From assembly GCA_003136555.1 (NCBI GenBank), contig PLEW01000056.1, positions 25,716 to 89,715 on the forward strand: a DNA stretch of 64,000 nt, read 5' to 3'. The translations under genes and the position numbers were made by a program. The notes beneath the pieces were generated by a model that made no database searches, had not been told where the DNA came from, and saw only the letters and a program-made list of their open reading frames with translations. This DNA is from Planctomycetota bacterium. GTDB lineage: Bacteria > Planctomycetota > UBA11346. How positions within the stretch are numbered: position 1 is the first letter of the stretch; each line of letters starts with the position of its first letter. Below, in pieces: positions 18,611-61,497 of this stretch.

Positions 18611-18616
18611 GGGATA

Positions 18617-46989: not shown

Positions 46990-47394
46990 CTAGGGTACGT
47001 CCAGGCCGAGGGTCTTGCGCGCAGTGGCGATGCCGCCCAGGTTCTCAACGTTGGCATAGCCCTTGTCCTTCAGCGTCGCGAGTGCTAGCGCCGCGCGACC
47101 GCCACTACGGCAATAGAGGCCGATGTGCGCTGTCTTATCGCTCGTGATCTCGGCGATGTGCACGGCGATCTGATCGTAGGGGATGTGCACTGCACCCTCG
47201 ATGTGCCCGCTATCCCACTCCTCCTGCGAGCGCACATCGATGACATAGCGGCCGGCAATCTGGATGACGCTGGGAGCTGGTGCCACGTCATCGGCCGCCT
47301 GAAGAGCCATGCCGCTCAGCAGCAGGACGACGATGACAACTATTGGCATGATGGATTGCGAGTGTTTGCGCTTCAGGCGCGTGGCAATCGGCAT
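46990..47394 (-). CDS. Periplasmic single-domain rhodanese (sulfurtransferase)
   Basis: Signal peptide, then IDVRSQEEWDSGHIEGAVHIP and the active-site loop LYCRSGGRA. It starts 29 nt after the C1 stop and is probably co-transcribed. Confidence 0.85.
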   Translation of the reverse strand: MPIATRLKRKHSQSIMPIVVIVVLLLSGMALQAADDVAPAPSVIQIAGRYVIDVRSQEEWDSGHIEGAVHIPYDQIAVHIAEITSDKTAHIGLYCRSGGRAALALATLKDKGYANVENLGGIATARKTLGLDVP

Positions 47395-47423
47395 TCGGCC
47401 TTAGCGACCACTCGCAGCGGAGG

Positions 47424-48650
47424 TCAGTAATAGGTTGGCTGTGTCACCAGGCGCTCGACCCAACGAATGGTGCCGACCGGGTTTTTGGTCCAGGTCTGGG
47501 TGCGATTCCCGACGCTCCAGGTGTGGCTGGCGTTGGCTGGCCACATCAGGTTATGCTCAACGCCGACGTCACCATGCTGAAGGTTGTGATAGGTCTGCTC
47601 CATGACCGACGGGGACCATTCGATGCGATACCAGATACGCAGTTCATTTGCCGCCAGGGAATTGAAGAAGCCGGGATCGTTGTTGAACATGGCGGCGGCA
47701 CTTGGACCGCCGACGCTGGCTGCTTCGGCATAGCTCGTATAGCCCATCGTCGCTCCGGAACCGCAGGTGATGACGAAGGTCGCAGGGCCATCGCGGTAGA
47801 CGCGGAACCATGATTTCCCCGTCGTCTGCTGGCGTGGCGTCGGATCACCATGGACGAAATCGGTGAGTGTCGCGCCATTCTGCCCATCATCGTAGAGCGC
47901 GCCCGTGACCGTCCCGGAAGTGGCTTGCTGAGGCCAACCATTGCTGACCACGGGCATCGGATCCGGATATTGGATATAGGGCAGGCCGAAGAGCGCATTG
48001 CCAGGAGTCGTATTGATGGGATTGTAGACGGCAGTGAGCTGGGTGGCATAGGGCGGGCGCTGCATGACGTACATCGGGCAGATCGCGACACTGCCAATGG
48101 CTGGCCAAGCGGGGCGATTCCAGCCGCTCCCATTGCTCTCCACCAGGGCGGTGCTCCAGACGGCATAGGTGCTATAGGGGAGCGTGGCTGGAGAAGGTGC
48201 ACGCACGTTCGGTCCGATCGAGCCATCGCGCACGTCGATCCAGCCATAGGTCTCCTGATGCGCCGGCATCGTGGCTGGACTCGGGGAGGATAGGATGGTG
48301 CCTGAGAGCGAGAGGACACCTGATCCGTTCGGCAGTGTCTGGGGAGGCGGTATGATCGCACTCGGGTGGGCTGGAGCGCCTTGATAGTAGGGGAAGTTGG
48401 CATCCCAACCCAGGCGCGAGGTCTCCTGCACATAATTGCACGCAGCGGCAAGCATAATTTTGGCCTGCGCCAATTGCATGACGACCTGGGTCTCCTCGGA
48501 GTCCGAGCGCATGCGAGCCAGGAACACCAGGCTCATGCTGGCAAGCAGTGCAGACAGCCCCGCGACGATTATCAGGATGGTCCCGCGCTGATGGCGCGAC
48601 CTGCGAGGAACAGACGGAGCGATGGTAATCACCTGCATGGTAGCATTCAC
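47424..48650 (-). CDS. Giant GspK/PilX-like pseudopilin-type protein C1 (pilin-type N-helix without Glu+5)
   Basis: GTG start. N-terminus ...RRSRHQRG|TILIIVAGLSALLASMSLVFLARM. The ~370-aa Trp/Tyr/Pro/Asn-rich body has no domain I recognise. By eye it is roughly 70% identical to 54108..55343. Confidence 0.6.
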   Translation of the reverse strand: MNATMQVITIAPSVPRRSRHQRGTILIIVAGLSALLASMSLVFLARMRSDSEETQVVMQLAQAKIMLAAACNYVQETSRLGWDANFPYYQGAPAHPSAIIPPPQTLPNGSGVLSLSGTILSSPSPATMPAHQETYGWIDVRDGSIGPNVRAPSPATLPYSTYAVWSTALVESNGSGWNRPAWPAIGSVAICPMYVMQRPPYATQLTAVYNPINTTPGNALFGLPYIQYPDPMPVVSNGWPQQATSGTVTGALYDDGQNGATLTDFVHGDPTPRQQTTGKSWFRVYRDGPATFVITCGSGATMGYTSYAEAASVGGPSAAAMFNNDPGFFNSLAANELRIWYRIEWSPSVMEQTYHNLQHGDVGVEHNLMWPANASHTWSVGNRTQTWTKNPVGTIRWVERLVTQPTYY

Positions 48651-48658
48651 GATTTCAT

Positions 48659-50086
48659 TTAGGGGGTCGGCGAGTCGAGGTTCGGTTGGTTGCCTTGGCC
48701 CGGATTGGGACCCGGAGTCGTGGTCATAGCTGCTGGATCATCATCCCAATGAGCCCAGCCAGAGCCGCCCGAAGTGTCGTTCGGGTCTTTGCGTTGCATA
48801 CGCGCACCGCGCAACGTTGTTCCCAGGCCGAGGAAGGAGATCTGGGTAACGGAACCCGTGATGGAGCTGCGCCGATTGATTTTCGCCACGGCAACGAAAT
48901 GATCGCATTTCACCAATCGCCCCACGGTCGTGTAGACGCCTGGCCAGTTGGTCGGCTCGAGAGGCAGCAAGTTCTGCGGGAAGGCGGTATGCGCGAGGAG
49001 GTCCTGCAGACCGACAGCCCCCCACTGGACGCCACTGCCGCCGTTGAACGCAGTGTAGTCGCTGTCGAAATGCATGTAATGCCGCCAGAAGATGCCCGGC
49101 TCGCCTGTCGGATCGGCGGGAGCCCAGGGGTTGAAGTAGCCGAAGGACGTCGAGTAGGTCTCGCGGTAGATGCCGCACGCCGTGACTTGCCCGCCATCTG
49201 AATTACGAAACCCGCCCCAGGACCCCCATTGGGGCATGGTGGCCAGGAGACTCAGGCCGCCGGCGCTGGTCGAACCGGATGCCCCCATGTAATAGGCATA
49301 GAGGGCATTCGGGGGGAGATACTCGCACATGGCCTGGTAGCCAAGGGCGCCGAGGAAGAATTGAATCTGGTTCGGATACCAGAGATGGGGAATGACCATT
49401 GGAGGAGAGTATCCGACAGAGTAGCTGGTCGACGTTGTCGGATTCGTGACAGTCCACGAGTTGAGTGCCGGTGTCGCGGAAACATTCGAGAAGATGGCAT
49501 AGCGTCCGAAGAGGACCGACGGTATCGACGGAGTAACACCCCCCCAGCCAGAGCCGGAGGATTTTTCTGCCGGATTGACCTGGCACCAGGTGCGCGGGTC
49601 GCTCGGGGTCCAGGAGACCGTCGGATCGAATCCAGTATCCTTCTCCCAAGGATCAAGCGGATCGGTATCTTTCGCCGATGGATAGGGGCCAGGACGCGGC
49701 TTGATCTCCCCATAGGTCAACGGCGATCCCGCTTTAATGGCGCTGGGGGGATTCTCCTGATTGGCTCCGTTGCAGATGAGGGACATCGGCGTGAACGGCA
49801 TGCCGCTTGGAGAGTTGGTCGGTCCGGTATTCGGGTACCCACGGAGCTTCTGGTTGCTGGGATTGTTCGGATCATCGAGAGACGTCCAGAAATCGAGGTC
49901 ATTCTGCACCTGGAAGTAGCCAGCTCGCAGCATGGCGTTCTCGAGCGACAGCTGGTTCGAGACCGTGATGGCCTGGGATGCCGTGCGAACGCCGGCAAAA
50001 GCGGTATAAAGGATGAGAGAGCCAAGACCGATCGACAACATCAGCTCGATCAATGTGAAGGCACTCGTGGGACGATGCAGGGTCAT
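48659..50086 (-). CDS. Giant prepilin-type protein B1 (GspJ/PilW position)
   Basis: N-terminus MTLHRPTSA|FTLIELMLSIGLGSLILYTAFAG is a class III signal with Glu+5. The 475-aa body is unknown. It is a paralog of 55340..57040. Confidence 0.65.
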   Translation of the reverse strand: MTLHRPTSAFTLIELMLSIGLGSLILYTAFAGVRTASQAITVSNQLSLENAMLRAGYFQVQNDLDFWTSLDDPNNPSNQKLRGYPNTGPTNSPSGMPFTPMSLICNGANQENPPSAIKAGSPLTYGEIKPRPGPYPSAKDTDPLDPWEKDTGFDPTVSWTPSDPRTWCQVNPAEKSSGSGWGGVTPSIPSVLFGRYAIFSNVSATPALNSWTVTNPTTSTSYSVGYSPPMVIPHLWYPNQIQFFLGALGYQAMCEYLPPNALYAYYMGASGSTSAGGLSLLATMPQWGSWGGFRNSDGGQVTACGIYRETYSTSFGYFNPWAPADPTGEPGIFWRHYMHFDSDYTAFNGGSGVQWGAVGLQDLLAHTAFPQNLLPLEPTNWPGVYTTVGRLVKCDHFVAVAKINRRSSITGSVTQISFLGLGTTLRGARMQRKDPNDTSGGSGWAHWDDDPAAMTTTPGPNPGQGNQPNLDSPTP

Positions 50087-50095
50087 GGCAAGCCT

Positions 50096-52264
50096 TTACC
50101 GCAGGATCGCCTGGACGCGGGGATCGTAGAAGTTGAATCGTGCGACCAGCTGCGCCCGCAGGCGGACCGATCGTGGGACCGGGCCGCGATCGAGCACCTG
50201 ATTGTAATTCCGATCGGCACCGTACAGGCCGCTGAAGACTGATTCCTGCGTGGTGCCCGATCCCTGATCGGGTGCACTGTTCCAGGGATTATTGAGGATT
50301 TCCCAGCCTGTTGTCACGGTTCCGGTTGCCACATTTGCGGTCGGCTGCATGAAGAGTTCGCACTTCTCGGGATTGCGGAACGCCCACATCTGCTCGTCAC
50401 GGAACTGCATGTCTCCCATGCGCAGGTACATGTTCCGCTGATTGTACCAGGGTGGCCAAGAGCTGCCTGAGCCGTTGTTCGCGCCCCAGGAGGTGCAGCG
50501 GGGGGAACTCAGCGCATACTTGCTGGCATCGACGGGTGCGCTGGGCAGGGTCTCGAAATCCTCGTAGGACTGCCAGTCGACCGCCCAGAAGACGATTTCG
50601 CGGCAACGCTCAGCGGCTTTGAAGGGAGCCGCCAGCGTATAATGGTCGATGTTCCCGAAAATCGATCCATTGACCTGGGCGCTTGCGGAGCTGCCTTGCT
50701 GCATGGTCGCATCGAGTCCGATGATGCCTGCCGGGATCGTCCAGCTGGGGGACTGGGAAGAGGTGGCGTTCATCACCGGATACGTCTGGCTGACGCCGAT
50801 ATGCTGAATCGGCTCTGCCGACACCGGGCGCCATCCCACCGCCGGGGCATTTGGTTGCGAGCCAAAGACGGTGCCCACCAGCGGCGGAGACCACATGTCG
50901 CTCATGATCAGGGGGTAATCCATCATGATGGTACGGTTGGTCGGCCTGGGAATGGCCCAATCGTAGGGATACATGGCGCAGAATTGCATGATCAGATACA
51001 TCGCCCGTTCGTGGTAGTAGCGAATGCCCTGATCAAAGATGGTGATGGAGGATTGGCCGGCGGGAGGCATGCTGGTGAAACCATTCGCGGTCATAGGAGG
51101 GATGGTGACGCCCGAGTTGGAAAGATCCATGTGGCCGGAGGCCGTATCGCTGTAGGCGAACCAGGAGGTCAAGGTCGTGGCGGCATGGCTGAGGAAGCGG
51201 AAGGCCTGCACTTCCTTCCAGCGATCGGTTTCGGTGTTGGTCAAGAAGGGCGCATGGGCGTCCAGGGTCTGGACGTTGCCGGGCGAGAAGTAATCGGTTC
51301 CCGTGCCGAGCTTCTTCTGGAAATACCAGACCGCCGCCTGGGCATAGCCAATGGCGCCTGTCATGCTGGGAGCGACGCCCACATATCCGTCCGGGAAGGT
51401 GGTCGGACCATTATGATTCTGCAGTTGCAATCCGCAGGCATAGGGGAAATACCCGACGTGGACCATGCCGGGAACAAGCGGCCAATCGTAGACCACATGC
51501 ATGTCGGGATCGAGATTGCTGGGGATGGATTCCCAGGGAATGTCCCAATCCTCACCATAGTAACTGGTCGGGCCCATGGAGAGCGGGCTTGGCCATGGGT
51601 GATAGGACCAGTAGGCACCACCGGCTTGATTGCCATTCGGGGGGATCCACATGTCCGGCATGTGTGACGCGTTCAAGGGAGGCGACGGCATGGGGCAGAA
51701 ATAGGGCCAATCCTTCATCGCCATCATATGCAGGCAATTTTGCTGCGCATACCCAGAGACGGCAAAAATGAGCTTCTGGATGTCATTCGGCGGACTCGCC
51801 GGGTTGCCCTGCTCTTCCGTCTCGGTTGTAGCCATGGCCTGCGAGTAATAGATGTACCCGCCTTGGCTGAGCACCTGCTGGATCTCGTCGTTGTCGGAAT
51901 CCAGGCGCCCAGCCAGGGCGAGGGGAAGCGGCATGATGCCATAACGAGGCGACGACAAGCGCGCCTCCAGGTCCCAGGCTTGTGCCCGATAGCCACCCGA
52001 CGTATCCCATGGCATCAAACCTTCCGTATCAATCGAGGGATTGGCATTCGTGGTGGAAGTAAACGACTCGACCATTTCCTCGGCCTTGGCGGACGCATAG
52101 ATCTGGAATCGGGCCATTTCCTGAGCTTTGATGCCAACTGGGAAGAGCATGAGGACACTGACCACGCCGAAGGTCACCAGAACCAGGGAGATGGCGACCT
52201 CGAAAAGGGTGAATCCGCCCCGACTGGGGCTTGGAATACGTTTGGAGGGTCTGCACAGAGGCAT
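50096..52264 (-). CDS. Giant prepilin-type protein A1 (GspI/PilV position)
   Basis: N-terminus MPLCRPSKRIPSPSRG|GFTLFEVAISLVLVTFGVVSVLMLF is a textbook prepilin cleavage/methylation motif. The 722-aa body is unknown. It is a paralog of 57050..59308. Confidence 0.65.
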   Translation of the reverse strand: MPLCRPSKRIPSPSRGGFTLFEVAISLVLVTFGVVSVLMLFPVGIKAQEMARFQIYASAKAEEMVESFTSTTNANPSIDTEGLMPWDTSGGYRAQAWDLEARLSSPRYGIMPLPLALAGRLDSDNDEIQQVLSQGGYIYYSQAMATTETEEQGNPASPPNDIQKLIFAVSGYAQQNCLHMMAMKDWPYFCPMPSPPLNASHMPDMWIPPNGNQAGGAYWSYHPWPSPLSMGPTSYYGEDWDIPWESIPSNLDPDMHVVYDWPLVPGMVHVGYFPYACGLQLQNHNGPTTFPDGYVGVAPSMTGAIGYAQAAVWYFQKKLGTGTDYFSPGNVQTLDAHAPFLTNTETDRWKEVQAFRFLSHAATTLTSWFAYSDTASGHMDLSNSGVTIPPMTANGFTSMPPAGQSSITIFDQGIRYYHERAMYLIMQFCAMYPYDWAIPRPTNRTIMMDYPLIMSDMWSPPLVGTVFGSQPNAPAVGWRPVSAEPIQHIGVSQTYPVMNATSSQSPSWTIPAGIIGLDATMQQGSSASAQVNGSIFGNIDHYTLAAPFKAAERCREIVFWAVDWQSYEDFETLPSAPVDASKYALSSPRCTSWGANNGSGSSWPPWYNQRNMYLRMGDMQFRDEQMWAFRNPEKCELFMQPTANVATGTVTTGWEILNNPWNSAPDQGSGTTQESVFSGLYGADRNYNQVLDRGPVPRSVRLRAQLVARFNFYDPRVQAILR

Positions 52265-53257
52265 GGTCGGATCCGATGGGGAACGAAGGGCGTCGCTTAG
52301 TGGACGCCGTGAACAAGCAGAGCCGGACTCGGATAACGAACCGCTATGGCAGGTTCATGTTGATGCCGGCAGGACAGGTGTGCAATTGATGCAGGGGCCC
52401 ATGCAACCAAGAAGAACCAGCTCAATGAGATCCCTGGTCGCTGAAGTGTGGGAAGCACGGCAATGCGCATACGTAACGTTTCCTATACTCCGACATTGCA
52501 AAAGCTGACACGCAATCTGCCGTGATGCCTGGGTCGTGTGGCGCCGCCCCCCCGATGGCATGGGACTCACTCGACAGGGAGGACGAGCGGCTGGATGCTT
52601 GTGGAGCGTTGGGCGCCACGATGCCCTGATGAGTGGGTCAGCAGCCAGAATGGCCTTGGGAGTGTAACAGACCCGTGTCGCGGTAAGGGGTACAGTCCTG
52701 CCGGGGCAGGACAGGCTACACCCAGCGGGACCCCGCCCACAACAAGGGCAGCCCTTGTCGTGATGTGGCATGCCGCTGAACGGGGACAGGACGCAACGGG
52801 CAAGCGCAATGATTCGAGGTCTTGGCAGCAAGATCGCAGGAGATCAGTATGCCCACCAAGAACGGAGTACGCATTGCAAGCGACGGTATAGCGCTATTGG
52901 TATATTGCCAACCATACCAAGGATCAAGCACAGGTATCCGCTTAAGGACAGCCAGCTCGGTCGACCCGGTGCAGGTCGGTCCATGCCACGCCAGGCCTGC
53001 GGACAAAGGGAACTGCGCGCGAATGGGTTCCCAGGCGTAGCCGCAAGGCCCAGTTTACCACAGGCCACGTGGACGGTGCGCCCCCGGGTCGACAGTTCCG
53101 ACAGCTGTGACGCTGGGGGGTTCGGGTTGGGAACGGTCATCCTCGTTTATTTTTTAAGGCGCGCGAGACTTCCTCCAGTGCCCCTTCTGGTGCAGCCCAA
53201 TACGTTCGGCGGGGCGATGTAGCCACTCTCCCCATCAATTCGGGAGCACAGTGCTTC

Positions 53258-53738
53258 AATGCACGTCGAAGGATGGCACCTTGATCAACAAGGACCCGCG
53301 CGAACGACGGCCGAGACGTATGCCATGCCCACCGCACCCAGCGAGTGCCACTGCCGCCGGCGCAGCGGCGCGGAGCCGGAAGTTGATGGCTGGTCCTGGT
53401 GTAGTGGCTCCTCGGCAGGCTGTTGGGGGGGCATGACCTGTATACCCGGCAGGCCAAGAGATCGGGATCAGCGGGACAGGGGGCTGGTCCATGCTCGGTT
53501 CCGGCTGCTGCACGCGCCAATCCGGTGCTCACCGGGCGTGCCAAGCGCGGTGATCTGCCGCTCTCTCTGATCGGACCGTCCTCCAGCCCATTACCGTGAT
53601 CTTCACCATCGGGTAGGATGACATCCCGACCGTCCTCATCCACCTGATTAGCAATCCCAGCTTGGAGGTCGATGCCTCGAGCCACAATCTGCATATGCCC
53701 GGCAGCGGTACAGAGCCGCCTGCGTGCATGCTTTGCCT
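53258..53738 (+). pseudogene. mdtA' : decayed, internally deleted 5' fragment of the RND adaptor gene (duplication-junction relic)
   Basis: This stretch aligns to mdtA 60150..60447, then jumps to ~60913..61112. That implies an internal deletion of roughly 0.45 kb, plus a second smaller one. ATGATCAAC has become CTTGATCAAC. CAG has become TAG at 53614..53616 (GQDD -> G*DD). Track ORF 53137..53694(-) is its antisense shadow. Confidence 0.7.
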
Positions 53739-54078
53739 GGTCCTACAGCGTCGTGAGCGCCAGGGCAGCCCGCCCTCCAGGCGGTCTATAGAGGCCGATG
53801 TGCGCGGCATAAGCCATCGTGATCTCGACGATAGGAGCGGCGTTCAGATCGTGGGGGATGTGTGCCGTACCGGCGATATGACCGCTTTGCCACTCCTCCT
53901 ACGAGCGCACATCGATGACGTAGCGGTCGGTGATCTGGATGGCGCTAGGAGCTGGTACCCTGGCATCAGCAGTCTGGAATGCCTTGGCGCTGAGCAGCAG
54001 GACGACGATGACCAGCGCCTGCAGCGACGGGCTCGAAGCATCAAAGTGCTCGTGCCACAGTCAAGCTGCAGACGGCAT
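53738..54078 (-). pseudogene. Rhodanese pseudogene (copy of 46990..47394 lacking its 3' end)
   Basis: Colinear nucleotide similarity to the intact rhodanese gene. There is an in-frame TGA at codon 6 (54061..54063) and a TAG at 53899..53901 (RSQEEW -> RS*EEW). The active-site codons LYCRSGGR have become LYRPPGGR. The last ~20 codons are absent at the junction with mdtA'. Confidence 0.75.
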
Positions 54079-54107
54079 TCCTCTTCGGTCGCCGTACGTG
54101 AAGGCGG

Positions 54108-55343
54108 TCAGTAATAGGTCGGCTGCGTCTGCAGGCGCTCGATCCAGCGAATGGTACCGACCGGATTCTTCGCCCAGGTCTGAGTGCGTTGGGCCACGCT
54201 CCAGGTATGGCTGGCATTGGTTGGCAGGAGCAGGTAATGCTCCTGTATTGAGGTGGCTCCGGTCTGGACGTTCTGATAGGTCAATTCCATGGTCGCGGCC
54301 GACCATTCGATGCGATACCAGATTCGTATTTCGTCCTGGGCGATGGCCATGAAGGTGTTGGGGTCATTGTTGAACTGAGCCTGGGCGACGGCGCCCCCGA
54401 TAGAGCTGAGTTCGGACCAATCCTTCCAGCCCAGGGTACCGCCGGCGCCGCAAGTGATGACAAAGGTCTGCGGCCCATCGCGGTAGACACGGAACCAGGA
54501 CTTGCCCGCGGTCTGCTGCCGCGGCGTCGGATTGCCATGGACGAAATCGTTGAGTGTCGCGCCTTGCTGCCCGTCGTCATACAGAGCGGTCGAGATGGTT
54601 CCTGATGTCGATGACTGCGGCCAGCCATTGGACACCACGGGCATCGGATCGGGATACTGGGTGTATGGATAGCCGAAAGTCGCATCAGTAGGATTGACGT
54701 CGATCGGATTGTAGACGGCGGTGAGCTGGGTGGCGTAAGGAGGCCGTTGCATCACAAACATCTGGCAGATCGCGACGCTGCCCATTGCCGGCCAGTAGGG
54801 CCGTGTCCAGCCGTGTCCATCGCTGAGTACGGGCGTGTTGCTGTACGCAGCATAGGTGGAATAGAGGGTTCCGACCGGATTGGCGGTCTGCGGGCGGTAA
54901 TTGGGGCCGATCGATCCATCGCGCACATCGACCCACCCGTAGGTCTCCTGGTGCCCGGGCAGCGTGGCGGGGGATGGGGGCGTTATAGAGCCGCTGGTTG
55001 GCGAGATGACGCCGGTGCCATTGGGCAAGGTGACCGGCGTGGCATTGGGGACAGGGGAGTTTGGCGAAGGATTGCCGTAGTACGGATAATTGACATCCCA
55101 GCCGAGCCGCGAGGTCTCCTGGACATAGTTGCAGGCGGCAGCCAGCATGATCTTCGCCTGCGCCAATTGCATCACCACCCCTGTCTCCTCGGTGTCGCTG
55201 CGCATGCGCGCGAGGAACACGAGGCACAGGGTGGCGAGCAGGGCTGAGATGGCTGCGACCAGGATGAGAATGGTGCCGTGGCGTTGGTGTGACCTGCTGC
55301 GGATGAGAGGTGCGATGGGAGTCATGGGCATGTCAGCATTCAC
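54108..55343 (-). CDS. Giant GspK/PilX-like pseudopilin-type protein C2
   Basis: The GTG start overlaps the B2 stop (GTGA). N-terminus ...SRSHQRHG|TILILVAAISALLATLCLVFLARM has no Glu+5. It ends in QTQPTYY, like C1. Confidence 0.6.
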   Translation of the reverse strand: MNADMPMTPIAPLIRSRSHQRHGTILILVAAISALLATLCLVFLARMRSDTEETGVVMQLAQAKIMLAAACNYVQETSRLGWDVNYPYYGNPSPNSPVPNATPVTLPNGTGVISPTSGSITPPSPATLPGHQETYGWVDVRDGSIGPNYRPQTANPVGTLYSTYAAYSNTPVLSDGHGWTRPYWPAMGSVAICQMFVMQRPPYATQLTAVYNPIDVNPTDATFGYPYTQYPDPMPVVSNGWPQSSTSGTISTALYDDGQQGATLNDFVHGNPTPRQQTAGKSWFRVYRDGPQTFVITCGAGGTLGWKDWSELSSIGGAVAQAQFNNDPNTFMAIAQDEIRIWYRIEWSAATMELTYQNVQTGATSIQEHYLLLPTNASHTWSVAQRTQTWAKNPVGTIRWIERLQTQPTYY

Positions 55344-57040
55344 GGTTGCGTTTGGGGTGTCGGCGAGTCGAGATTCGGTTCGTTGCCTTGGCCCGGATTG
55401 GGTCCAGGAGCCGACGTCATGACTGCTGGATCATCATCCCAATGTGCCCATCCTGTTCCGTAGGTTGGGTCTTTGCGCTGCATTCGTGCTCCGCGCAGGG
55501 TGGTGCCCAGGCCGAGAAAGGAGAGTTCGACCGTGGCGCCCGTCAGTGGGTTGAGACGGCGGATCTTCGCTACCGAGACGAAGTGACCGGTCTTCACCAG
55601 GCGTCCAACGGCGGTCATGACAGTCGGCCAGTTCGTCGGCTCGAGCGGAAGCATCGATTGCTCAAAGGCGGTATGGGCGAGCAGATCCTGCAGGCCGAGC
55701 TCTCCTCCATTCGGTCCACTCCCTCCGCTGAAGGCGGTATAGTCGCTATCGAAATGCATGTAATGCCTGGGAAAGATGCCGGGTTCGCCATTCGGATCGG
55801 GCGGAGCCCAGGGATTGAAGTACCCGAAGGAGGTCGAATAGGTCTGCCGGTACATGCCGATGGAGGTGATCTGGTTGCCGTCCCAATTGCGAAAGCCCCA
55901 GTAGGGACCCCAGCCCGGTTGGGTGCACTGCCGGGACATGCCGCCAGCAGTACACGGAGTGCCCCAGTCCCATTCGTTGGAAGGTTCGTGCCCACCTGTC
56001 GGAGTGTAGTTATAGTTGGGCGCCCCTGCATACTGGAGACCGGTCATGCCCGACGGCTGACTCATATAGAAGTTATAGATGGCATTGGGCGGCAGGTACT
56101 CGCACATCGCCTGGAAGCCGAACAGGGTCAAGAACAGCTGGATCTGGTTAGGATACCAGGTGTGCGCTATCAGATTCGGAGTTTTGTAGGTCACCATGTA
56201 CGGGATGTCTTGCGGCGGGGACGGTGGTGGGGGGTTGGAGCCGGAGTTGGGCAGCGAGTAAGCTTGCCCGATGAAATTGAGGTTCCAGCCGATCTGCCAG
56301 GAACCGAACGTGACGGGTTGGCTAGACGTATTCGGGAGCAGGTTCGAGAACAGGCCGTATCGGCCAAAGGTCACCGGTGGGACGAACGACCCATAGGGCA
56401 GCGGGGTGGTGCCCCAGTAATCCTGCTTGCCGTAATTGGCATCCAACGGATTGGTGTCCCAGCCTGGGCCATTATAGGCGAGATCCTTCTCCGCCATGTT
56501 CACTCGGACCCAGGTGCGAGGGTCGGAGGGTGAATACGAGACCGTCGGGTCGAAGAAGGTATCGGCCTCCCAGGGATCGCTGTAGCTAGGGATCGGACCA
56601 AAGAGATACCCTGGTGGGCGCGGCTTGATCTCGCCGTAGGTCGTCGGGGAACCGGCGGTGATGGCCGGCTGTATGGTCGGGCCGCGCAGCGTTATGTTCT
56701 TGACGCCATTAGCCAGATTGAGCATGGACATGGGCGTGAACGGATTGCCGGGGATGGTATTCGAGGCGGATACGGACCAGGTGCCCCCAGTGGGGCGCAG
56801 CTTCTGATTGGAGGTGTTGTTGGGATCATCCAGTGAGGTCCAGAAATCGAGATCATTTTGCACCTGAAAGTAGCCGGCGCGCAGCAGACTATTCTCCAAG
56901 GAAAGGCTGTTGGCGATGGTGATCGCCTGCGATGCCGTGCGGAAGCCAGCGAAGGCGGTATAGAGAATCAGCGTTCCGAGCAGAATCGAGATCATCAACT
57001 CGATCAGCGTGAATGCGTTCGTGGTGCGATGGTAAGCCAT
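55340..57040 (-). CDS. Giant prepilin-type protein B2
   Basis: N-terminus MAYHRTTNA|FTLIELMISILLGTLILYTAFAG. GAGG lies 6 nt upstream of the ATG. At 566 aa it is longer than B1 through internal insertions. Confidence 0.65.
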   Translation of the reverse strand: MAYHRTTNAFTLIELMISILLGTLILYTAFAGFRTASQAITIANSLSLENSLLRAGYFQVQNDLDFWTSLDDPNNTSNQKLRPTGGTWSVSASNTIPGNPFTPMSMLNLANGVKNITLRGPTIQPAITAGSPTTYGEIKPRPPGYLFGPIPSYSDPWEADTFFDPTVSYSPSDPRTWVRVNMAEKDLAYNGPGWDTNPLDANYGKQDYWGTTPLPYGSFVPPVTFGRYGLFSNLLPNTSSQPVTFGSWQIGWNLNFIGQAYSLPNSGSNPPPPSPPQDIPYMVTYKTPNLIAHTWYPNQIQLFLTLFGFQAMCEYLPPNAIYNFYMSQPSGMTGLQYAGAPNYNYTPTGGHEPSNEWDWGTPCTAGGMSRQCTQPGWGPYWGFRNWDGNQITSIGMYRQTYSTSFGYFNPWAPPDPNGEPGIFPRHYMHFDSDYTAFSGGSGPNGGELGLQDLLAHTAFEQSMLPLEPTNWPTVMTAVGRLVKTGHFVSVAKIRRLNPLTGATVELSFLGLGTTLRGARMQRKDPTYGTGWAHWDDDPAVMTSAPGPNPGQGNEPNLDSPTPQTQP

Positions 57041-57049
57041 GCAGACCTC

Positions 57050-59308
57050 TTAGCGCAGGATCGCGGGGACGCGCGGATCGTAGAAATTGAAACGCCCCAC
57101 CAGCTGGGCGCGAATGCGGACAGATCTCGGCAGGGGACCGCGGTCGAGGACCTGATTGAAATTCCGGTCGGCGCCGTAGAGGCCGTTGAAGACATGGTCG
57201 GCGGTGTTGTCCAGCTTGCCGACCCAGGACTGGTTGGCACCCTGGTCGGGGGGTGGATAGCCCCACTGATTGGGAACATTAAGCATCTCCCATTGATAGG
57301 CTCCATTCAGCCCGACCAAAGGCGTGCCGGTCGGATATTGCGACATGTCCTGAAGGAAAAGCATGCTCTTCTCGGGGCTGCGGAACGCCCACAGCTGCTC
57401 GTCTCGGAATGCCATGTCGCCCATGCGCTGATAGAACGTGCGCTGCTGGCTCCACAGGCTGAAGGTCGGGGGGTTGACATTGCCGCTGCCTGTGGTCGTG
57501 CGGGGCCCAGACAGCGGGTATTTGCTGGCGTCAACCGGCGCGCTGGGCAGGGTCTCGAAATCCTCATATGACTGCCAATCAGCGGCCCAAAACACGATTT
57601 CGCGGCAGCGTTCGGCCGGTTGGAAGGGTGCCGCCAGAGTATAATGGTCGATGTTGCCGAAGATAGACGTCGGGGCCGGCGACGTGTTTGCCCCTCCCAT
57701 CATGGAGGCATCCAGCGCGACGATCCCCGACGGGATGGTCCAGCTCGGACTCTGATTCGATTGCGCAGCCATGATCGGGTAGGTCTGGCTGACGCCGATG
57801 TGCTGAATGGGCTCGCTGGAGATGGGCCGCCAACCTGCTGCCGGGACGGTCGGCTGCGAACCGAACACGGAGCCTACGAGCGGCGGCGAGTACAGGTCGC
57901 TCATGAGCAGTGGGTAGTCAGTCATGATTGTACGGTTGGTCGACCTGGGTACAGCCCAGTCGTAGGGATACATGGCGTAGAACTGCATGAGCAGGTACAT
58001 CGCCCGCTCGTGGAAGTAGCGGATATCGCCATCATAGATGTAAATATTGGAGCTCCCGCCAGCGCCATGGCTGGTGAATCCATAGATGGTGGCCGGTGGG
58101 ATGAGTGCGCCTCGCGCGCTGAGGTCCATGTTCGCCGGATTCGAATCGCTATAGCTGATCCACGATGTCAGCACCGTGGATGCATGGGCGAGGAAGCGGA
58201 AGGCCTGAACTTCCTGCCAGCGGTCGGTTTCGACCGTGCTGACAAAATCGGCATGCGGGTCGAGCGTAGCGGAGCCGCCAGGATTACCGCTCGAGAAGAG
58301 CATGGAATATTTCCCCGTCGGATCCATCTTCTTCTCGAAATACCACACTGCCGCCTGTACGTAGCCGAGGGCGGTCTGCAGACAGGGGGCTATCCCCAAC
58401 GTGCCATCGGCAAAGGTAGTGGGTGAGACCTGCGCAGGATAAGGTATCGAAGTGGTCGTCTGGCCCCAGTAGATCGTTCCGCACGCATAGGGAAAATAGC
58501 CGATATGAGGATAATGGGAACCAGCCGGCAACGGAGGAGCCGAGGGATTCACATAAGGGTAGTCATAGACGACTCCCATGTCGGGATCGAGGTTGAAGGG
58601 AATGGATTCCCAGGGAATATCCCAGTCCTCGCCGCAATAAGGCCAACTGTGGAAGCTCCAATAGGAACCGCCGGCTTGAGTGCCAGGTTTGGGCAGCCAC
58701 ATGTCGGGCATGTGCGACATATGCATCGGTGGGGAGGGCATGGGTGTGGAATAGGGCCAGTTCTTCATTGCGAACATGGTCAGAGAGTTTTGCTGGGCGT
58801 AGCCGCTGATTGTGAAGATGAGCTTCTGGGCATCGTTGGGTGGCGCCTTTGGATTGCCTTGCTCTTCTGTCTCCGTGGTGGCTAAGGGCTGAGAATAGTA
58901 GATGTAGCCGCCTTGGCTGATGATCTGCTGGATCTCATCGCTATCGGAGTCGATGCGCTGGGCGAGAGCGACCGGAAGCGGCATGATGCCATAGCGATGC
59001 GAGGAGAGGCGAGCCTCCATGTCCCAGGCCTGGGCGCGATAAGCGCCGGCGGTATCCCAGGGCATCAGACCTTCAGTATCAATTGCTGGGTTGGCGTTGG
59101 TCGTCGCGTTGAAGGTCTCGACCATCTCTTCGGCTTTACAGGCGGCATAGACGCGGAAACGTGCCATCTCCTGCGCCTTGATGCCGACTGGGAACAACAT
59201 GAGCACGCTGACCACGCCGAAGGAGACCAGGACCAGCGATATGGCGACTTCGAAGAGCGTGAAGCCACGTCGTAAGGGACGAGGGTGAAGCTGAATGAGT
59301 CTGCTCAC
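57050..59308 (-). CDS. Giant prepilin-type protein A2
   Basis: Track ORF 57050..59518. The prepilin motif ...PLRRG|FTLFEVAISLVLVSFGVVSVLMLF lies 85 codons into that ORF. I place the start at in-frame GTG 59308 (MSRLIQLHPRPLRRG|F), giving a 15-aa leader like that of A1. The alternative is ATG 59518. Confidence 0.6.
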   Translation of the reverse strand: MSRLIQLHPRPLRRGFTLFEVAISLVLVSFGVVSVLMLFPVGIKAQEMARFRVYAACKAEEMVETFNATTNANPAIDTEGLMPWDTAGAYRAQAWDMEARLSSHRYGIMPLPVALAQRIDSDSDEIQQIISQGGYIYYSQPLATTETEEQGNPKAPPNDAQKLIFTISGYAQQNSLTMFAMKNWPYSTPMPSPPMHMSHMPDMWLPKPGTQAGGSYWSFHSWPYCGEDWDIPWESIPFNLDPDMGVVYDYPYVNPSAPPLPAGSHYPHIGYFPYACGTIYWGQTTTSIPYPAQVSPTTFADGTLGIAPCLQTALGYVQAAVWYFEKKMDPTGKYSMLFSSGNPGGSATLDPHADFVSTVETDRWQEVQAFRFLAHASTVLTSWISYSDSNPANMDLSARGALIPPATIYGFTSHGAGGSSNIYIYDGDIRYFHERAMYLLMQFYAMYPYDWAVPRSTNRTIMTDYPLLMSDLYSPPLVGSVFGSQPTVPAAGWRPISSEPIQHIGVSQTYPIMAAQSNQSPSWTIPSGIVALDASMMGGANTSPAPTSIFGNIDHYTLAAPFQPAERCREIVFWAADWQSYEDFETLPSAPVDASKYPLSGPRTTTGSGNVNPPTFSLWSQQRTFYQRMGDMAFRDEQLWAFRSPEKSMLFLQDMSQYPTGTPLVGLNGAYQWEMLNVPNQWGYPPPDQGANQSWVGKLDNTADHVFNGLYGADRNFNQVLDRGPLPRSVRIRAQLVGRFNFYDPRVPAILR

Positions 59309-60135
59309 GAGTATGTCGGATCCGATGGGTGAAGAAGGTTGACGTTCAGTGGCGGCCGCGAGGCGGTCGAAGTGGACTCGAAAGTCGCACTGCCATGGGA
59401 GGCTAACGTCAATTGCGCATATGTGCAAATGATGAAGAGGTCCCGGTGACTGCGTTGAAGAACCTCTGCGAGAGCCGCGGCCGCGGCAGAATCTAAGGAA
59501 GGCTGCAATTTGATGCATACGGCCTGCCTCCTATGCTCCGAGATCGGTAAAAATAACGAGTGATCATGCCTCATGGCCTGGGGGTCCGCTCGTTGGATTA
59601 TGGCATTGAGTGCAGTGATAGGAACGATGCACCAGGATGGGTTGCAGTCGGCTTGGCGTGTCGAGTGCAAACGAACCCCTTCCGATGAGTTGATCACGTC
59701 TGCATTGGATCGTCGCTGGTCCCTCCGGCCGAGTTCCCTGTTCGCCCAGTGGCACAAAACGACTTCCGGCAAAGCAGAGACGAAGAGACGCGAAGTGACA
59801 GCGCAACGATTCGTGGTCTCGGCGGCAAGAAGGCCGCCATGTACATCATAGAGGGCATAGTACTCGTAGGCAGAGACGGCCTGACTGCGTTAGGGTATCT
59901 CACGGTCGCGATGATCAAGCTCAGGTTTAAGCCTACCTACAGCAGACCCTGAGAGCGACGCGGTCCTCCGCTCGACGGCATAAGACGCTGCGGAGTCAGT
60001 ACTGGAATCGGTCATCCTCGTGTCATGTAGGCACGTTAGACTCCCCCCGGTGCCGCGTCTGGTGCAGCCCCCAGCGTTCAGTGGGACGACGTAGCCGCTC
60101 TCCCCTATCCACTGGAGAGGACGGCGCTTCAGCGT

Positions 60136-61497
60136 GTGTCGGAGATAATCATAATGATCAACCAAGCCCCCCCGAGACCGACTGCCGAGGCGCATGCCAT
60201 GCCCACAGACCCCATTGATCGCCCCCAGCGAGTACCACTGCCGCCGCCGCAGCGCAGTGGAGGGGGAGGGTGGTGGCTAGTGGTGGTGGTGCTGCTCCTC
60301 GGCGTGCTGGTGGGGGGATATGTCCTGTACACCCGGCAGGCCAAGCCGCCGGGACCAGCGGGTCAGGGGGGGGGTCCACGCTCGGGTCCAGCTGCGGCGC
60401 GCGCCATTCCGGTGCTCACCGGGCGTGCCAAGCGCGGTGATCTGCCTATCTACCTGACCGGCCTGGGCACGGTCACACCGCTTGCCAACGTCGTTGTCCG
60501 CAGCCGCGTCGATGGCCAGCTCATGCATATCGGCTTCGTGGAGGGTCAGATGGTCAAGGCGGGGGATGTCATCGCCGAGATCGACCCGCGGCCGTTTGCC
60601 GCCGCGCTCAAGCAGGTCGAAGGGCAATTGCTCAAGGATCAGGCGGTGCTGGATAATGCGCGCATCGATCTCAAGCGGTACCAGGACGGCGGTGACATCT
60701 TCTCCGATCAGCAGACGGCGACGCAGCAGGCTTTCGTCAAGCAGAACCAGGGCATCGTCGAATCCGATCAGGGGCTGGTGGACAATGCGCGTCTCCAGCT
60801 CGACTACTGCAGGATTGTCGCGCCGACGAATGGCCGCATCGGCCTGCGCACGGTCGATGAGGGCAACATGGTGCATGCCAGCGATACCACGGGATTGGCG
60901 GTCATCACCGTTCTCCAGCCCATTACCGTGATCTTCACCATCGGGCAGGATGACATCCCGTCCGTCCTCACCCACATGGCCAGCGATCCCCATCTGGAAG
61001 TCGATGCCTATAGCCGCGATCTGAGCAAACGCCTGGCCATGGGCACGCTCAGCGCCATCGACAACCAGGTCGATCCAGGCAGCGGTACGGTGCGCTTGCG
61101 TGCACGCTTCGATAACGCGGATCATCAGCTGTTCCCCAACCAATTCGTCAATGTCCGCCTGCTGATCGATACCCAGCACGGCGTGATCCTGGTACCCACC
61201 GCCGCCGTGCAGCTGGCACCTGATGGCAATTTCGTCTATGTGGTCGGTCAGGATTCCACGGTCTCGGTGCGCAAGGTGACCACCGGGGCGAGCGAAGAGG
61301 GCCTGACCATCGTCGACGGCATCGCCATGGATGATGTGGTGGTGACCGATGGTGTCGACAAGCTGCAAGCCGGCACCAAGGTGCAGACCCGCGCTCCGGC
61401 AAATGGTGGTGCGCATGATGCCGCAGTTACCGGTAAGTCTGCACCGGCAACCGGTACGGCAGCTCCTGCTGCTGGAACGCCGGACCATCAGCGATGA
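60136..61497 (+). CDS. mdtA: RND multidrug efflux periplasmic adaptor, MdtA family
   Basis: Long colinear similarity to E. coli MdtA as I recall it: YLTGLGTVTPLANVVVRSRVDGQLMHIGFVEGQMVKAGDVIAEIDP, QLDYCRIVAPTNGRIGLR, LFPNQFVNVRLL. The start may be ATG 60154 or 60199. Confidence 0.85.
   Translation: MSEIIIMINQAPPRPTAEAHAMPTDPIDRPQRVPLPPPQRSGGGGWWLVVVVLLLGVLVGGYVLYTRQAKPPGPAGQGGGPRSGPAAARAIPVLTGRAKRGDLPIYLTGLGTVTPLANVVVRSRVDGQLMHIGFVEGQMVKAGDVIAEIDPRPFAAALKQVEGQLLKDQAVLDNARIDLKRYQDGGDIFSDQQTATQQAFVKQNQGIVESDQGLVDNARLQLDYCRIVAPTNGRIGLRTVDEGNMVHASDTTGLAVITVLQPITVIFTIGQDDIPSVLTHMASDPHLEVDAYSRDLSKRLAMGTLSAIDNQVDPGSGTVRLRARFDNADHQLFPNQFVNVRLLIDTQHGVILVPTAAVQLAPDGNFVYVVGQDSTVSVRKVTTGASEEGLTIVDGIAMDDVVVTDGVDKLQAGTKVQTRAPANGGAHDAAVTGKSAPATGTAAPAAGTPDHQR

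What the first reader, a model, noticed from the sequence alone, without database searches (positions are those of the whole stretch)
47424..59308. Two tandem copies of a three-gene operon for giant pseudopilin-like proteins in GspI/J/K (PilV/W/X)-like order, with no filament machinery nearby
Each copy is a tight minus-strand operon with gaps of -4 to +9 nt. Copy 1 is A1 50096..52264, B1 48659..50086, C1 47424..48650. Copy 2 is A2 57050..59308, B2 55340..57040, C2 54108..55343. A (722/752 aa) starts with a textbook class III signal ...RG|GFTLFEVAISLVLV (Phe+1, Glu+5). B (475/566 aa) starts with ...(S/N)A|FTLIELM(L/I)SI, with Ala at -1 and Glu+5. C (408/411 aa) has HQRG|TILI(I/L)VA. That is a pilin-type hydrophobic N-helix that lacks Glu+5, the hallmark of GspK/PilX-type subunits. 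The pattern 'E5 pilin, E5 pilin, E5-less pilin' is the order of minor-pilin tip/priming complexes. Canonical subunits are about 120-330 aa. Here the post-helix regions are several-fold larger and are Trp/Tyr/Pro/Asn/Gly-rich and poor in charged residues. I recognise no known domain in them. No major pilin, secretion ATPase, platform protein, secretin or prepilin peptidase is present in the 64 kb. My inference is a tip complex whose subunits have expanded into a large adhesin- or enzyme-like head, displayed by a T2SS/T4P-type filament encoded elsewhere.
Basis: partly seen in the sequence, partly recalled or inferred. Interest (0 to 1): 0.85.

Follow-up and report, generated by a model that had tools for sequence, protein, structure and literature searches.

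The report
Multi-copy giant pilin-like gene cassettes
Two adjacent copies of a three-gene cassette encode very large proteins that start like pilus subunits but otherwise have unknown folds; a few uncultured Planctomycetota carry up to 20 or more such cassettes each, which suggests a set of exchangeable filament tips.

Summary
Two intact minus-strand trios, A-B-C, lie at the stated coordinates and are 56-68% identical between copies.

**What the families show**
- A and B always have Gly/Ala at -1, Phe at +1 and Glu at +5.
- C always has Arg-x-Gly then Thr and never Glu at +5, as in GspK.
- AlphaFold models of A (pLDDT 81.5) and C (74.2) start with a 50-56-residue helix. Their bodies match nothing in the PDB by sequence or fold.

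- The cassette is a closed family: 346 clusters among 1.84 billion proteins.
- In the genome scan it occurs in 15 uncultured Planctomycetota MAGs, with up to 20 or more copies per genome. The order is always A-B-C and the genomic contexts are unrelated.
- None of 87 cassette loci or the window (1.42 Mb in all) carries an assembly ATPase, platform protein or prepilin peptidase. One locus has a secretin and a PilM-like gene. About seven have extra pilin-like genes.
- The window's duplication also copied flanking gene pieces. These decayed to pseudogenes while both trios stayed intact.

**Reading**
The best reading is a lineage-specific set of modular minor-pilin tip complexes. They are not GspIJK/PilVWX members, and filament incorporation is inferred, not shown. 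This is a new variant of a known kind, of moderate to high interest.

The parts
50096..52264 (-). A1, 722 aa. Leader of 17 residues, then G|FTLFE (Phe+1, Glu+5) and a body of unknown fold.
   Evidence: ORF. Motif statistics. AF2 model has pLDDT 81.5 with a helix at residues 20-70. No PDB or viral fold match. 175 homologues.
48659..50086 (-). B1, 475 aa. Leader of 9 residues, then A|FTLIE (Ala-1, Phe+1, Glu+5).
   Evidence: The family profile hits only the N-termini of PilA, geopilin and MshA in the PDB. Relatives carry Pfam N_methyl.
47424..48650 (-). C1, 408 aa. ...HQRG|TILIIVA, with no Glu+5 (GspK-type N-terminus).
   Evidence: AF2 model has pLDDT 74.2 with a helix at residues 22-77. No PDB fold match. 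The family is closed at 346 clusters.
57050..59308 (-). A2, 752 aa, GTG start. Paralogue of A1 (65% identity).
   Evidence: (P0005).
55340..57040 (-). B2, 566 aa. Paralogue of B1 (56% identity, with about 90 extra residues in loops).
54108..55343 (-). C2, 411 aa. Paralogue of C1 (68% identity). Overlaps the B2 stop by 4 nt.
52055..52264 (-). A1 class III signal peptide plus predicted alpha-1 helix (residues 1-70). The equivalent segments are A2 59105-59308, B1 49907-50086, B2 56861-57040, C1 48420-48650 and C2 55113-55343.
47061..53691 (.). Duplication unit 1. It aligns with unit 2 (53736-61023) at about 72% nucleotide identity.
   Evidence: blastn of the two halves.
53736..61023 (.). Duplication unit 2. 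It contains trio 2 and the intact HlyD-type gene 60136-61497.
53737..54078 (-). Rhodanese pseudogene: a copy of 46990-47394, 59% identical, with three in-frame stops.
   Evidence: tblastn.
53286..53691 (+). Fragments of a duplicated HlyD-type gene, with stops, a frameshift and residues about 110-257 deleted.
   Evidence: tblastn.

Best explanation
Each trio is a three-gene operon for a heterotrimeric cap of a type IV filament (a pilus or pseudopilus), built from three modular minor pilins.

**Shown**
- A, B and C have family-wide conserved class III signal sequences and long N-terminal helices.
- A and B always carry Glu+5, and C never does.
- The three genes are always together and in the same order.
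- The bodies are large, aromatic-rich, poor in charged residues and of unknown fold. Segments are conserved next to the helix and, in all three proteins, at the C-terminal end. Between them lie indel-rich variable blocks.
- Genomes of the lineage carry many diverged copies.

**Inferred**
- A prepilin peptidase encoded elsewhere cleaves after Gly/Ala(-1).
- C is the topmost subunit and needs no Glu+5. A and B dock beneath it through their helices.
- The complex primes a filament of a major subunit encoded elsewhere.
- The bulky bodies form the exposed tip, and their variable loops set ligand specificity.
- The many cassettes would then be alternative tips for one machine, expressed under different conditions.
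For: - **Motif conservation.** A: -1 is G47/A18, +1 is F60, +5 is E in 67/67. B: -1 is A39/G25, +1 is F62, +5 is E in 64/64. C: -3 is R65, -1 is G67, +1 is T60/A7, and +5 is I/L/V/M/F with E in 0/67.
- **GspK comparison.** E. coli GspK begins ...QRG|VALLIVL, the same E5-less type as C.
- **Predicted helices.** Residues 20-70 in A and 22-77 in C, which is pilin alpha-1 length.
- **Best family hits.** They are weak but follow the I/V, J/W, K/X order. The B profile finds only pilin N-termini in the PDB. Many B relatives pass Pfam N_methyl and are named as prepilin-type proteins.
- **Synteny.** A-B-C order holds in every locus with enough contig.
- **Extra pilin genes.** Divergent loci add 1-5 E5-type pilin genes next to the trio: L001, L019, L074, L078, L079, L086 and L089.
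- **Machinery link.** L079 also has a secretin (PF00263, E = 1.9e-20) and a PilM-like gene a few kb away.
- **Selection.** Both trios stayed intact while co-duplicated flanking gene pieces became pseudogenes.
- **Scaffold and variable blocks.** Conserved ends with variable, indel-rich blocks between.
- **Established knowledge.** Type IV filament tip complexes are capped by a subunit lacking Glu5, and assembly starts at the tip. Prepilin peptidases cleave after Gly or Ala (PMC10191384). Bulky modular pilins are tip-located (PMC8179133).
Against: - No pilin fold or GspI/J/K fold was recovered by Foldseek for A or C (best E = 1.4 and 2.1).
- HMM hits stop at the N-terminal helix and lie below all curated cut-offs.
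- No ATPase, platform protein or prepilin peptidase is linked to any of 87 cassette loci or to the window (1.42 Mb). Their presence in these genomes could not be checked.
- Twenty or more priming complexes per genome has no precedent.
- B was not modelled.
- There are no expression or protein data.
Confidence: 0.55

Rival explanations
1. A bindosome-like envelope complex. The class III signal sequence serves to export, anchor and oligomerise large binding proteins in the cell envelope, perhaps as a very short stub. It would capture substrates or polymers, not cap a long filament.
For: - Large archaeal sugar-binding proteins use class III signal peptides in this way (PMC3047682).
- The bodies are aromatic-rich and charge-poor.
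- There are many paralogues per genome.
- Regulators often sit nearby: AraC, LacI, and ECF sigma with FecR-PA14.
- Some loci lie beside glycoside hydrolases.
- No machinery is linked to the cassettes.
Against: - The strict E5/E5/no-E5 trio is the signature of a filament cap, and bindosome proteins are not reported to show it.
- No solute-binding-protein domain is detected.
- Neighbour censuses are heterogeneous and no transporter or CAZyme family dominates.
- A bindosome also needs an assembly ATPase and platform protein.
Confidence: 0.2
2. Alternative pseudopilus tips of a type II secretion system. Each cassette would adapt the piston head to a different set of secreted proteins.
For: - The GspI-J-K order and the E5 pattern fit.
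- The HIJK complex of T2SS contacts secreted effectors (PMC10191384).
- The cassettes are multi-copy and separately regulated.
Against: - The three mature bodies add up to about 1,550-1,700 residues, several times the size of GspIJK. This is hard to fit under a secretin (inference).
- No conserved cargo gene accompanies the cassettes.
- There is no sequence or fold membership in GspI/J/K.
Confidence: 0.12
3. Not pilin-related. The N-termini are ordinary signal-anchor helices that resemble prepilins by convergence, and the trio is a membrane-anchored enzyme or receptor complex.
For: - No pilin fold was recognised.
- Sequence similarity to pilins is confined to about 25-55 N-terminal residues and is below family thresholds.
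- Many acidic, His and Arg residues are invariant in A.
Against: - Invariance of exactly the positions that define prepilins (-1, +1 and +5) across about 65 diverged sequences per family is hard to explain by anchoring alone. So is the complementary, invariant absence of E5 in C.
- Bona fide pilin genes, and in one locus a secretin with PilM, co-locate with the trio.
Confidence: 0.08
4. Decaying or non-functional duplicated DNA, or gene-calling artefacts.
For: Tandem duplication with pseudogenised passengers. The GC content is somewhat lower (about 60%) than in the flanks (about 65%).
Against: - Six long intact ORFs have full-length homologues down to about 30% identity.
- Motifs, synteny and the coding GC3 bias are conserved.
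- Only the passengers decayed.
Confidence: 0.02

Closest known systems
Core minor-pilin tip complex: GspI-GspJ-GspK of type II secretion, and PilV-PilW-PilX (PilI/J/K) of type IVa pili
   Same: Three adjacent genes have class III signal sequences. The first two carry Glu+5 and the third lacks it, with an R-x-G|hydrophobic N-terminus like GspK. The weak best HMM hits follow the same order. The inferred role is cap and primer.
   Different: - No homology is detectable beyond the alpha-1 helix, and there is no GspK fold.
- Each subunit is about 1.3- to 6-fold larger than its E. coli Gsp counterpart: C 408 aa against GspK 327, B 475 aa against GspJ 195, and A 722 aa against GspI 125.
- Most loci have no H-type fourth subunit or major pilin.
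- The cassettes are never in a machinery operon.
- There are up to 20 or more copies per genome, not one.
Streptococcus sanguinis PilA-PilB-PilC tip complex and modular pilins in general (PMC8179133, PMC9934059, PMC10191384)
   Same: A three-pilin tip complex replaces HIJK. Large subunits carry bulky modules grafted onto a pilin module for ligand binding. Modular pilins reach about 860 aa and often contain modules with no database signature.
   Different: - In S. sanguinis the modules are recognisable (vWA, lectin), one subunit is small, and the genes lie in the pil locus in single copy.
- Here all three subunits are giant, their folds are unknown, and the cassettes are multi-copy and unlinked to machinery.
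Large minor pilins CofB/TcpB (type IVb pili) and ComZ (Thermus), as summarised in PMC8179133
   Same: Pilin N-terminus plus extra structural domains with no sequence signature. Tip location and ligand or effector binding.
   Different: These are single proteins (CofB forms a homotrimer) inside pilus operons. Foldseek against the PDB did not match them.
Verru_Chthon cassette proteins A-D (TIGR02596, TIGR02598-TIGR02600) of Verrucomicrobia. The family description is from my own knowledge of TIGRFAMs.
   Same: Multi-copy cassettes of proteins with prepilin-type N-termini and unknown function, in a phylum of the same PVC superphylum.
   Different: Only N-terminal, far sub-threshold hits: A against protein B scores 12 bits with a cut-off of 51.4, and an L086 accessory pilin against protein D scores 27 bits with a cut-off of 70. 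That cassette has four genes, and the family models differ.
DUF1559 pseudopilin-like paralogue family of Planctomycetes
   Same: A Planctomycete-restricted paralogous expansion of unknown function (68 copies in P. limnophila; PMC10632474). That these proteins also carry a prepilin-type N-terminus is from my own knowledge.
   Different: No DUF1559 hit in A, B or C. DUF1559 proteins are single genes of about 300 aa, not obligate trios (own knowledge).
Sulfolobus bindosome sugar-binding proteins (PMC3047682)
   Same: Large substrate-binding proteins with class III signal peptides, in several paralogues.
   Different: Archaeal. They have recognisable solute-binding domains tied to ABC transporters, and no E5/E5/no-E5 trio.

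Membership tests
Type IV pilin-like proteins (class III signal peptide; PF07963 / TIGR02532) | Short, basic leader ending in Gly or Ala at -1 | tested here: met
   A: G47/A18. B: A39/G25. C: G67 of 68, with Arg at -3 in 65. Cleavage after Gly or Ala is accepted (PMC10191384).
Type IV pilin-like proteins (class III signal peptide; PF07963 / TIGR02532) | Phe (or Met) at +1 and Glu at +5, followed by about 20 hydrophobic residues | tested here: met
   A: F60/M4/L3 at +1 and E in 67/67. B: F62 at +1 and E in 64/64. C deliberately lacks E5, as cap subunits do.
Type IV pilin-like proteins (class III signal peptide; PF07963 / TIGR02532) | Score above the curated HMM cut-off | tested here: inconclusive
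   The window proteins score 15-20.2 bits against the 21.2 cut-off for PF07963, and 12.5-14.6 bits against 16.3 for TIGR02532. Many B-family relatives do carry precomputed PF07963.
Type IV pilin-like proteins (class III signal peptide; PF07963 / TIGR02532) | Alpha-1 helix of about 50 residues packed on an antiparallel beta-sheet (the pilin fold) | tested here: inconclusive
   Helices at residues 20-70 (A) and 22-77 (C), followed by beta-rich bodies. Foldseek finds no pilin. Model coordinates could not be inspected, and B was not modelled.
Type IV pilin-like proteins (class III signal peptide; PF07963 / TIGR02532) | Processing by a prepilin peptidase and polymerisation by a type IV filament machine | not testable with these tools
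   No peptidase, ATPase or platform gene occurs in the window or in 87 cassette loci. Whole genomes could not be searched.
GspI/GspJ/GspK or PilV/PilW/PilX minor pilins | Three adjacent genes, with the last subunit lacking Glu+5 | tested here: met
GspI/GspJ/GspK or PilV/PilW/PilX minor pilins | Membership by the curated family models (TIGR01707 gspI, PRK08808 GspJ, NF037980 GspK, TIGR02523 PilV) | tested here: not met
   Scores are 9.7-26.9 bits against cut-offs of 44-295, and all are confined to the first 50-57 residues of the profiles. The C profile finds only 346 clusters and does not merge with GspK/PilX.
GspI/GspJ/GspK or PilV/PilW/PilX minor pilins | GspK-type fold (pilin module with an inserted alpha-domain) | tested here: not met
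   Foldseek of the C model against the PDB: best E = 2.1, with no pilin or GspK chain listed.
GspI/GspJ/GspK or PilV/PilW/PilX minor pilins | Encoded with the H-type minor pilin, the major pilin and the assembly machinery | tested here: not met
   Absent in the window. Extra pilins occur only in about 7 divergent loci, and a secretin with PilM in one.
Modular pilins (sensu Raynaud et al. 2021, PMC8179133) | Class III signal peptide and pilin N-terminus, plus additional bulky module(s) | tested here: met
   N-termini as above. Mature sizes are about 385-740 aa, against 125-327 aa for E. coli GspI/J/K. The extra mass has no database signature, as those authors anticipated for many such proteins.
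Verru_Chthon cassette (TIGR02596/98/99/600) | Score above the family cut-offs | tested here: not met
   A against TIGR02598: 12 bits with a cut-off of 51.4. Accessory pilins against TIGR02596/02599: 14-27 bits with cut-offs of 70 and 256.
DUF1559 Planctomycete pseudopilin-like family | DUF1559 domain | tested here: not met
   No such Pfam hit at E <= 1.

The most novel reading that the evidence does not exclude
One type IV filament machine in these Planctomycetota is served by a library of up to 20 or more interchangeable, individually regulated giant tip complexes. Each is built on a previously unseen protein architecture, with variable loops that recognise a different ligand such as a polymer, a surface or prey. 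This would be a cassette-based specificity system for pili, comparable in logic to the many SusC/SusD pairs of Bacteroidota or to phage receptor-binding-protein swapping.
Probability: 0.3. Interest if true: 0.8.

Novelty: new variant of a known kind. Interest (0 to 1): 0.6.

Why it matters
- **Versatility of filaments.** Type IV filaments owe their versatility largely to what sits at the tip. Here a whole lineage appears to have multiplied a three-subunit tip module up to 20 or more times per genome. All three subunits are expanded into large bodies, and the two that were modelled (A and C) gave confident structures that match nothing solved.
- **If the tip reading is right.** It would be the most extensive natural repertoire of pilus tips known. 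It would also give a concrete handle on how poorly understood, uncultured Planctomycetota attach to or capture substrates.
- **New protein families.** It would add three new protein families, of which at least two have new folds, to the modular-pilin concept.
- **If the filament reading is wrong.** The strictly conserved prepilin signature on a non-filament complex would itself be unusual in bacteria.

Tried and rejected
1. **Polysaccharide-utilisation-type linkage.** The first three contexts showed rhamnosidase, melibiase, GH2, beta-helix and PA14 neighbours. Pooled Pfam censuses of 102 neighbours and of 59 large neighbours were heterogeneous: topoisomerase, nitrate-reductase-type enzymes, kinases, TonB receptors and PSCyt/PSD proteins. 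No CAZyme or transporter family dominated. I rejected this as a general rule.
2. **Regulator enrichment.** AraC (13 loci), ECF sigma (10), FecR-PA14 (8), LacI (7) and Ser/Thr kinase (7) recur. Several of these loci are orthologous, and the frequency is not clearly above what regulator-rich genomes would give by chance. I treat it as suggestive only.
3. **Remote homology.**
   - Profiles of A, B and C against PDB sequences gave nothing, or only pilin N-termini.
   - hhalign of A against C aligned only the leader and helix start.
   - BLASTP against E. coli GspG-K gave only marginal hits (E >= 0.006), the best of them on the N-terminal helix and none with support beyond it.
4. **Fold searches.** A and C against the PDB, and A against the viral library, gave no match at E < 1.
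5. **Promoter and terminator scan.** The counts equal chance. There are no Rfam families or tRNAs.
6. **Extending the window.** Exact look-up of the end proteins failed, probably because the called start codons differ.
7. **Literature.** No paper in the library describes this trio or the Verru_Chthon cassette.

Full report
**1. The observation**

| Gene | Coordinates | Length |
|---|---|---|
| A1 | 50096-52264 | 722 aa |
| B1 | 48659-50086 | 475 aa |
| C1 | 47424-48650 | 408 aa |
| A2 | 57050-59308 | 752 aa |
| B2 | 55340-57040 | 566 aa |
| C2 | 54108-55343 | 411 aa |

- The gaps within each trio are +9, +8, +9 and -4 nt.
- The copies are clear paralogues: 65%, 56% and 68% identity over their full length.
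- Third-position GC (0.74-0.76) marks them as coding.
- Pfam and NCBIfam give nothing except sub-threshold hits on the first 25-57 residues.
- The composition claim is right. W+Y+F is 10-13% against 6.1% in 22 other proteins of the window, and D+E+K+R is 11-14.5% against 18.7%.
- The other ORFs that give a Pfam match encode two RND efflux systems, a full chemotaxis cluster, sugar enzymes, an ECF sigma/FecR pair and other unrelated genes; a few ORFs have no match. No pilus or type II secretion component is present. No further E5-type prepilin occurs in the 64 kb.

**2. The N-termini are prepilin-like, family-wide**

I aligned 66-68 diverse homologues of each protein and counted residues around the predicted cleavage site.

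| Family | -1 | +1 | +5 |
|---|---|---|---|
| A | Gly 47 / Ala 18 | Phe 60 | Glu 67/67 (Thr+2 and Leu+3 also invariant) |
| B | Ala 39 / Gly 25 | Phe 62 | Glu 64/64 |
| C | Gly 67 (Arg at -3 in 65) | Thr 60 / Ala 7 | Ile/Leu/Val/Met/Phe, never Glu |

- E. coli GspK starts ...EQRG|VALLIVL, the same E5-less type as C.
- The literature states that prepilin peptidases cut after Gly or Ala. It also states that filament tip complexes are capped by a subunit lacking Glu5, with assembly proceeding from tip to base (PMC10191384).
- The best-scoring NCBIfam models are weak but consistent with the order. A matches PilV (26-27 bits, residues 14-71) and GspI. B matches a prepilin-peptidase-dependent protein and GspJ. 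C matches ComGG and GspK.
- The B profile finds only the N-termini of PilA, geopilin and MshA among PDB sequences.
- Many B relatives carry Pfam N_methyl and are named prepilin-type proteins by NCBI.

**3. The bodies are new**

- AlphaFold2 models built on these alignments are usable: A has pLDDT 81.5 and pTM 0.78, and C has pLDDT 74.2 and pTM 0.66.
- Each begins with one long helix (A residues 20-70, C residues 22-77), followed by a mixed or beta-rich body.
- Foldseek finds no match in the PDB (best E = 1.4 for A and 2.1 for C) or in the viral library.
- Profile searches against PDB sequences find nothing for A or C.
- A and C share nothing beyond the leader and the start of the helix.
- Conservation is patchy in an informative way. 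In A, residues 21-200, 541-580 and 681-722 are well conserved. Blocks 201-240, 281-300, 501-540 and 581-620 are variable and rich in indels. C has hypervariable blocks at 81-120 and 241-260. B is conserved at both ends and variable at 101-140.
- This pattern fits a common scaffold with variable surface loops.

**4. Distribution: a closed, lineage-specific, multi-copy cassette**

- A has 175 detectable homologues, C has at least 386 and B has 72. All are unnamed, or called 'hypothetical' or 'PulG'. All organism names but one are Planctomycetota MAGs; the exception is a Minicystis MAG.
- An exhaustive profile search with C against 1.84 billion representative proteins finds only 346 clusters, 310 of them below 1e-10. 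The family therefore has a sharp edge and does not grade into GspK/PilX.
- A scan of one genome per GTDB species found 126 A-encoding stretches, of which 80 were kept (78 distinct loci). These lie in 15 MAGs, all labelled Planctomycetota. Counts per MAG are lower bounds: 20, 10, 9, 7, 5, 5, 4, 3, 3, 3, 2, 2, 2, 2 and 1.
- The A-B-C order holds in every locus where the contig is long enough.
- Tandem cassettes (L015, L017, L018) and head-to-head cassettes (L072) recur.
- The window's own proteins occur on more than 50 contigs from NCBI, JGI, ENA and Logan assemblies. Its organism is not among the species representatives: the best A hit there is 69% identical.

**5. Genomic context**

- tblastn with E. 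coli GspD, E, F and O against 87 cassette loci plus the window (1.42 Mb) gave no ATPase, platform protein or peptidase. It gave one secretin fragment.
- That locus, L079, carries a secretin (PF00263, E = 1.9e-20) and an 840-aa PilM-like protein. Both are convergent with a divergent A-B-C plus one extra pilin gene.
- About seven divergent loci add 1-5 E5-type pilin genes. In L086 the order is sigma, FecR, 285 aa, pilin, A, B, C, pilin, pilin, pilin, Wzy_C. In L001 five such genes lie divergently next to the trio.
- Otherwise the neighbours differ from locus to locus. The recurring ones are regulators: AraC, ECF sigma, FecR-PA14, LacI and Ser/Thr kinases.
- Pooled censuses of 102 neighbours and of 59 large neighbours show no dominant enzyme or transporter family.
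- The first contexts I saw were rich in glycoside hydrolases. This did not generalise, so I dropped the idea of polysaccharide-utilisation-type loci as a rule.

**6. The duplication in the window**

- blastn aligns 47061-53691 with 53736-61023 at about 72% identity.
- The unit included part of the rhodanese gene downstream and the 5' part of the HlyD-type gene upstream.
- In the inter-copy region these passengers are now a rhodanese pseudogene (54078-53737, three stops) and broken HlyD fragments (53286-53691).
- Both trios kept six long open frames at the same age. This is an internal control for purifying selection on both copies.
- Relatives from other populations are closer to one copy or to the other. 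P0123 is 78.5% identical to C2 and 69.8% to C1. P0388 is 59% identical to B1 and 50% to B2. The duplication is therefore old.

**7. How it most likely works**

*Shown:* prepilin-type N-termini with the E5/E5/no-E5 pattern, obligate three-gene synteny, large bodies of unknown fold with a conserved scaffold and variable loops, many diverged copies per genome, and occasional physical linkage to other pilin genes and to a secretin/PilM pair.

*Inferred:*
- The three proteins insert into the cytoplasmic membrane and are cleaved by a prepilin peptidase encoded elsewhere.
- They associate through their alpha-1 helices, with C on top.
- The complex primes and then caps a filament made of a major subunit encoded elsewhere.
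- The bulky bodies form the exposed head that binds a ligand.
- The cassettes are alternative heads.

I put this at 0.55. Rivals:
- A bindosome-like envelope complex that uses the pilin signal for anchoring (0.2).
- Cargo-specific type II secretion tips (0.12).
- Convergent signal anchors on an unrelated complex (0.08).
- Artefact or decaying DNA (0.02).

**8. Comparison with what is known**

- In logic and gene order this works like GspI-J-K / PilV-W-X. It fails membership on the curated models and on fold, on operon context and on copy number.
- The best-fitting known kind is the modular pilin. Raynaud et al. found more than 1,200 such proteins in 264 architectures, up to 860 residues. They noted that many more must exist whose extra modules have no database signature (PMC8179133).
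- S. sanguinis replaces HIJK by a PilA-PilB-PilC tip complex with two bulky pilins, one of them glycan-binding (PMC9934059, PMC10191384).
- Multi-copy pilin-like families are also known in the PVC superphylum: DUF1559, with 68 paralogues in P. limnophila (PMC10632474), and the Verru_Chthon cassette (TIGRFAMs, from my own knowledge). A, B and C are members of neither.

**9. Verdict**

- The finding is a new variant of a known kind: three new protein families, at least two of them (A and C) with apparently new folds, forming an obligate cassette with the signature of a filament cap.
- The cassette is amplified to an unprecedented number per genome in a narrow uncultured lineage and is unlinked from any machinery.
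- Main limits: no whole-genome check for machinery, no model of B or of the complex, no access to model coordinates, and no expression data.
- Interest is 0.6.

Noticed in passing
window 52265-54107: The spacer between the two trios consists of decayed passengers of the segmental duplication. One is a rhodanese pseudogene (54078-53737, minus strand, three in-frame stops). The others are fragments of the HlyD-type gene (53286-53691, plus strand) with stops, a frameshift and an internal deletion.
   Followed up: yes
L079 15859-21673: In MAG GH22 a secretin gene (cut by the contig end) and an 840-aa PilM/FtsA-like gene, followed by two unknown genes and a pseudouridine synthase gene (15859-16869), lie convergent with a divergent A-B-C plus one extra pilin gene. 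This is the only machinery linkage found in about 87 loci.
   Followed up: partly
L086 6295-19293: A long same-strand cluster runs ECF sigma, FecR, a 285-aa protein with an internal GspG-like N-terminal motif, a 199-aa pilin, A, B, C, three more pilin-like genes (391, 277 and 193 aa) and a 765-aa Wzy_C (O-antigen-ligase-type) protein. The last could be a pilin glycosylase.
   Followed up: partly
window 43815-46832: Directly downstream of trio 1 on the same strand lie a rhodanese gene (46990-47394), an Asp/Asn beta-hydroxylase-family gene (46080-46832), an ECF sigma gene (45215-45766) and a FecR anti-sigma gene (43815-45248). They are followed by a 338-aa unknown and a 752-aa fn3/PKD protein. 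2OG-oxygenase genes (PhyH) also recur near cassettes elsewhere (four loci, plus L001 and L089). A role in modifying the pilin-like proteins is speculation.
   Followed up: partly
L089 (JASGJQ010000004.1, 'Minicystis sp.' MAG): A cassette-like cluster occurs on a 5.9 Mb contig of a MAG labelled Myxococcota. It comprises an AraC regulator, a 538-aa protein in the position of A (not compared), a B homologue, two short ORFs in the position of C and extra pilin genes, with PhyH nearby. This is either horizontal transfer or mislabelling.
   Followed up: no
L015, L017, L018 (tandem); L072 (head-to-head): Other MAGs also carry two cassettes side by side. Local duplication therefore seems to be the usual way the family expands.
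   Followed up: partly
L087 19893-22025: IS66-family transposase genes lie about 8 kb downstream of a cassette.
   Followed up: no
window 14635-24458: A complete chemotaxis cluster lies on the minus strand: CheA, two CheW-type genes, CheB fused to Hpt, CheR, CheD fused to a receiver domain, a single-domain response regulator and two MCP genes. A third MCP gene lies at 4801-6822.
   Followed up: no
window 47000-60000: GC content falls to about 58-61% across the cassettes, against about 63-70% elsewhere. At least part of this reflects the unusual amino-acid composition (rich in Asn, Tyr, Thr and Trp).
   Followed up: partly
L027 7525-9774: A TonB-dependent receptor gene lies directly upstream of a cassette. 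Plug or TonB-receptor domains appear in three of 59 large neighbours.
   Followed up: no
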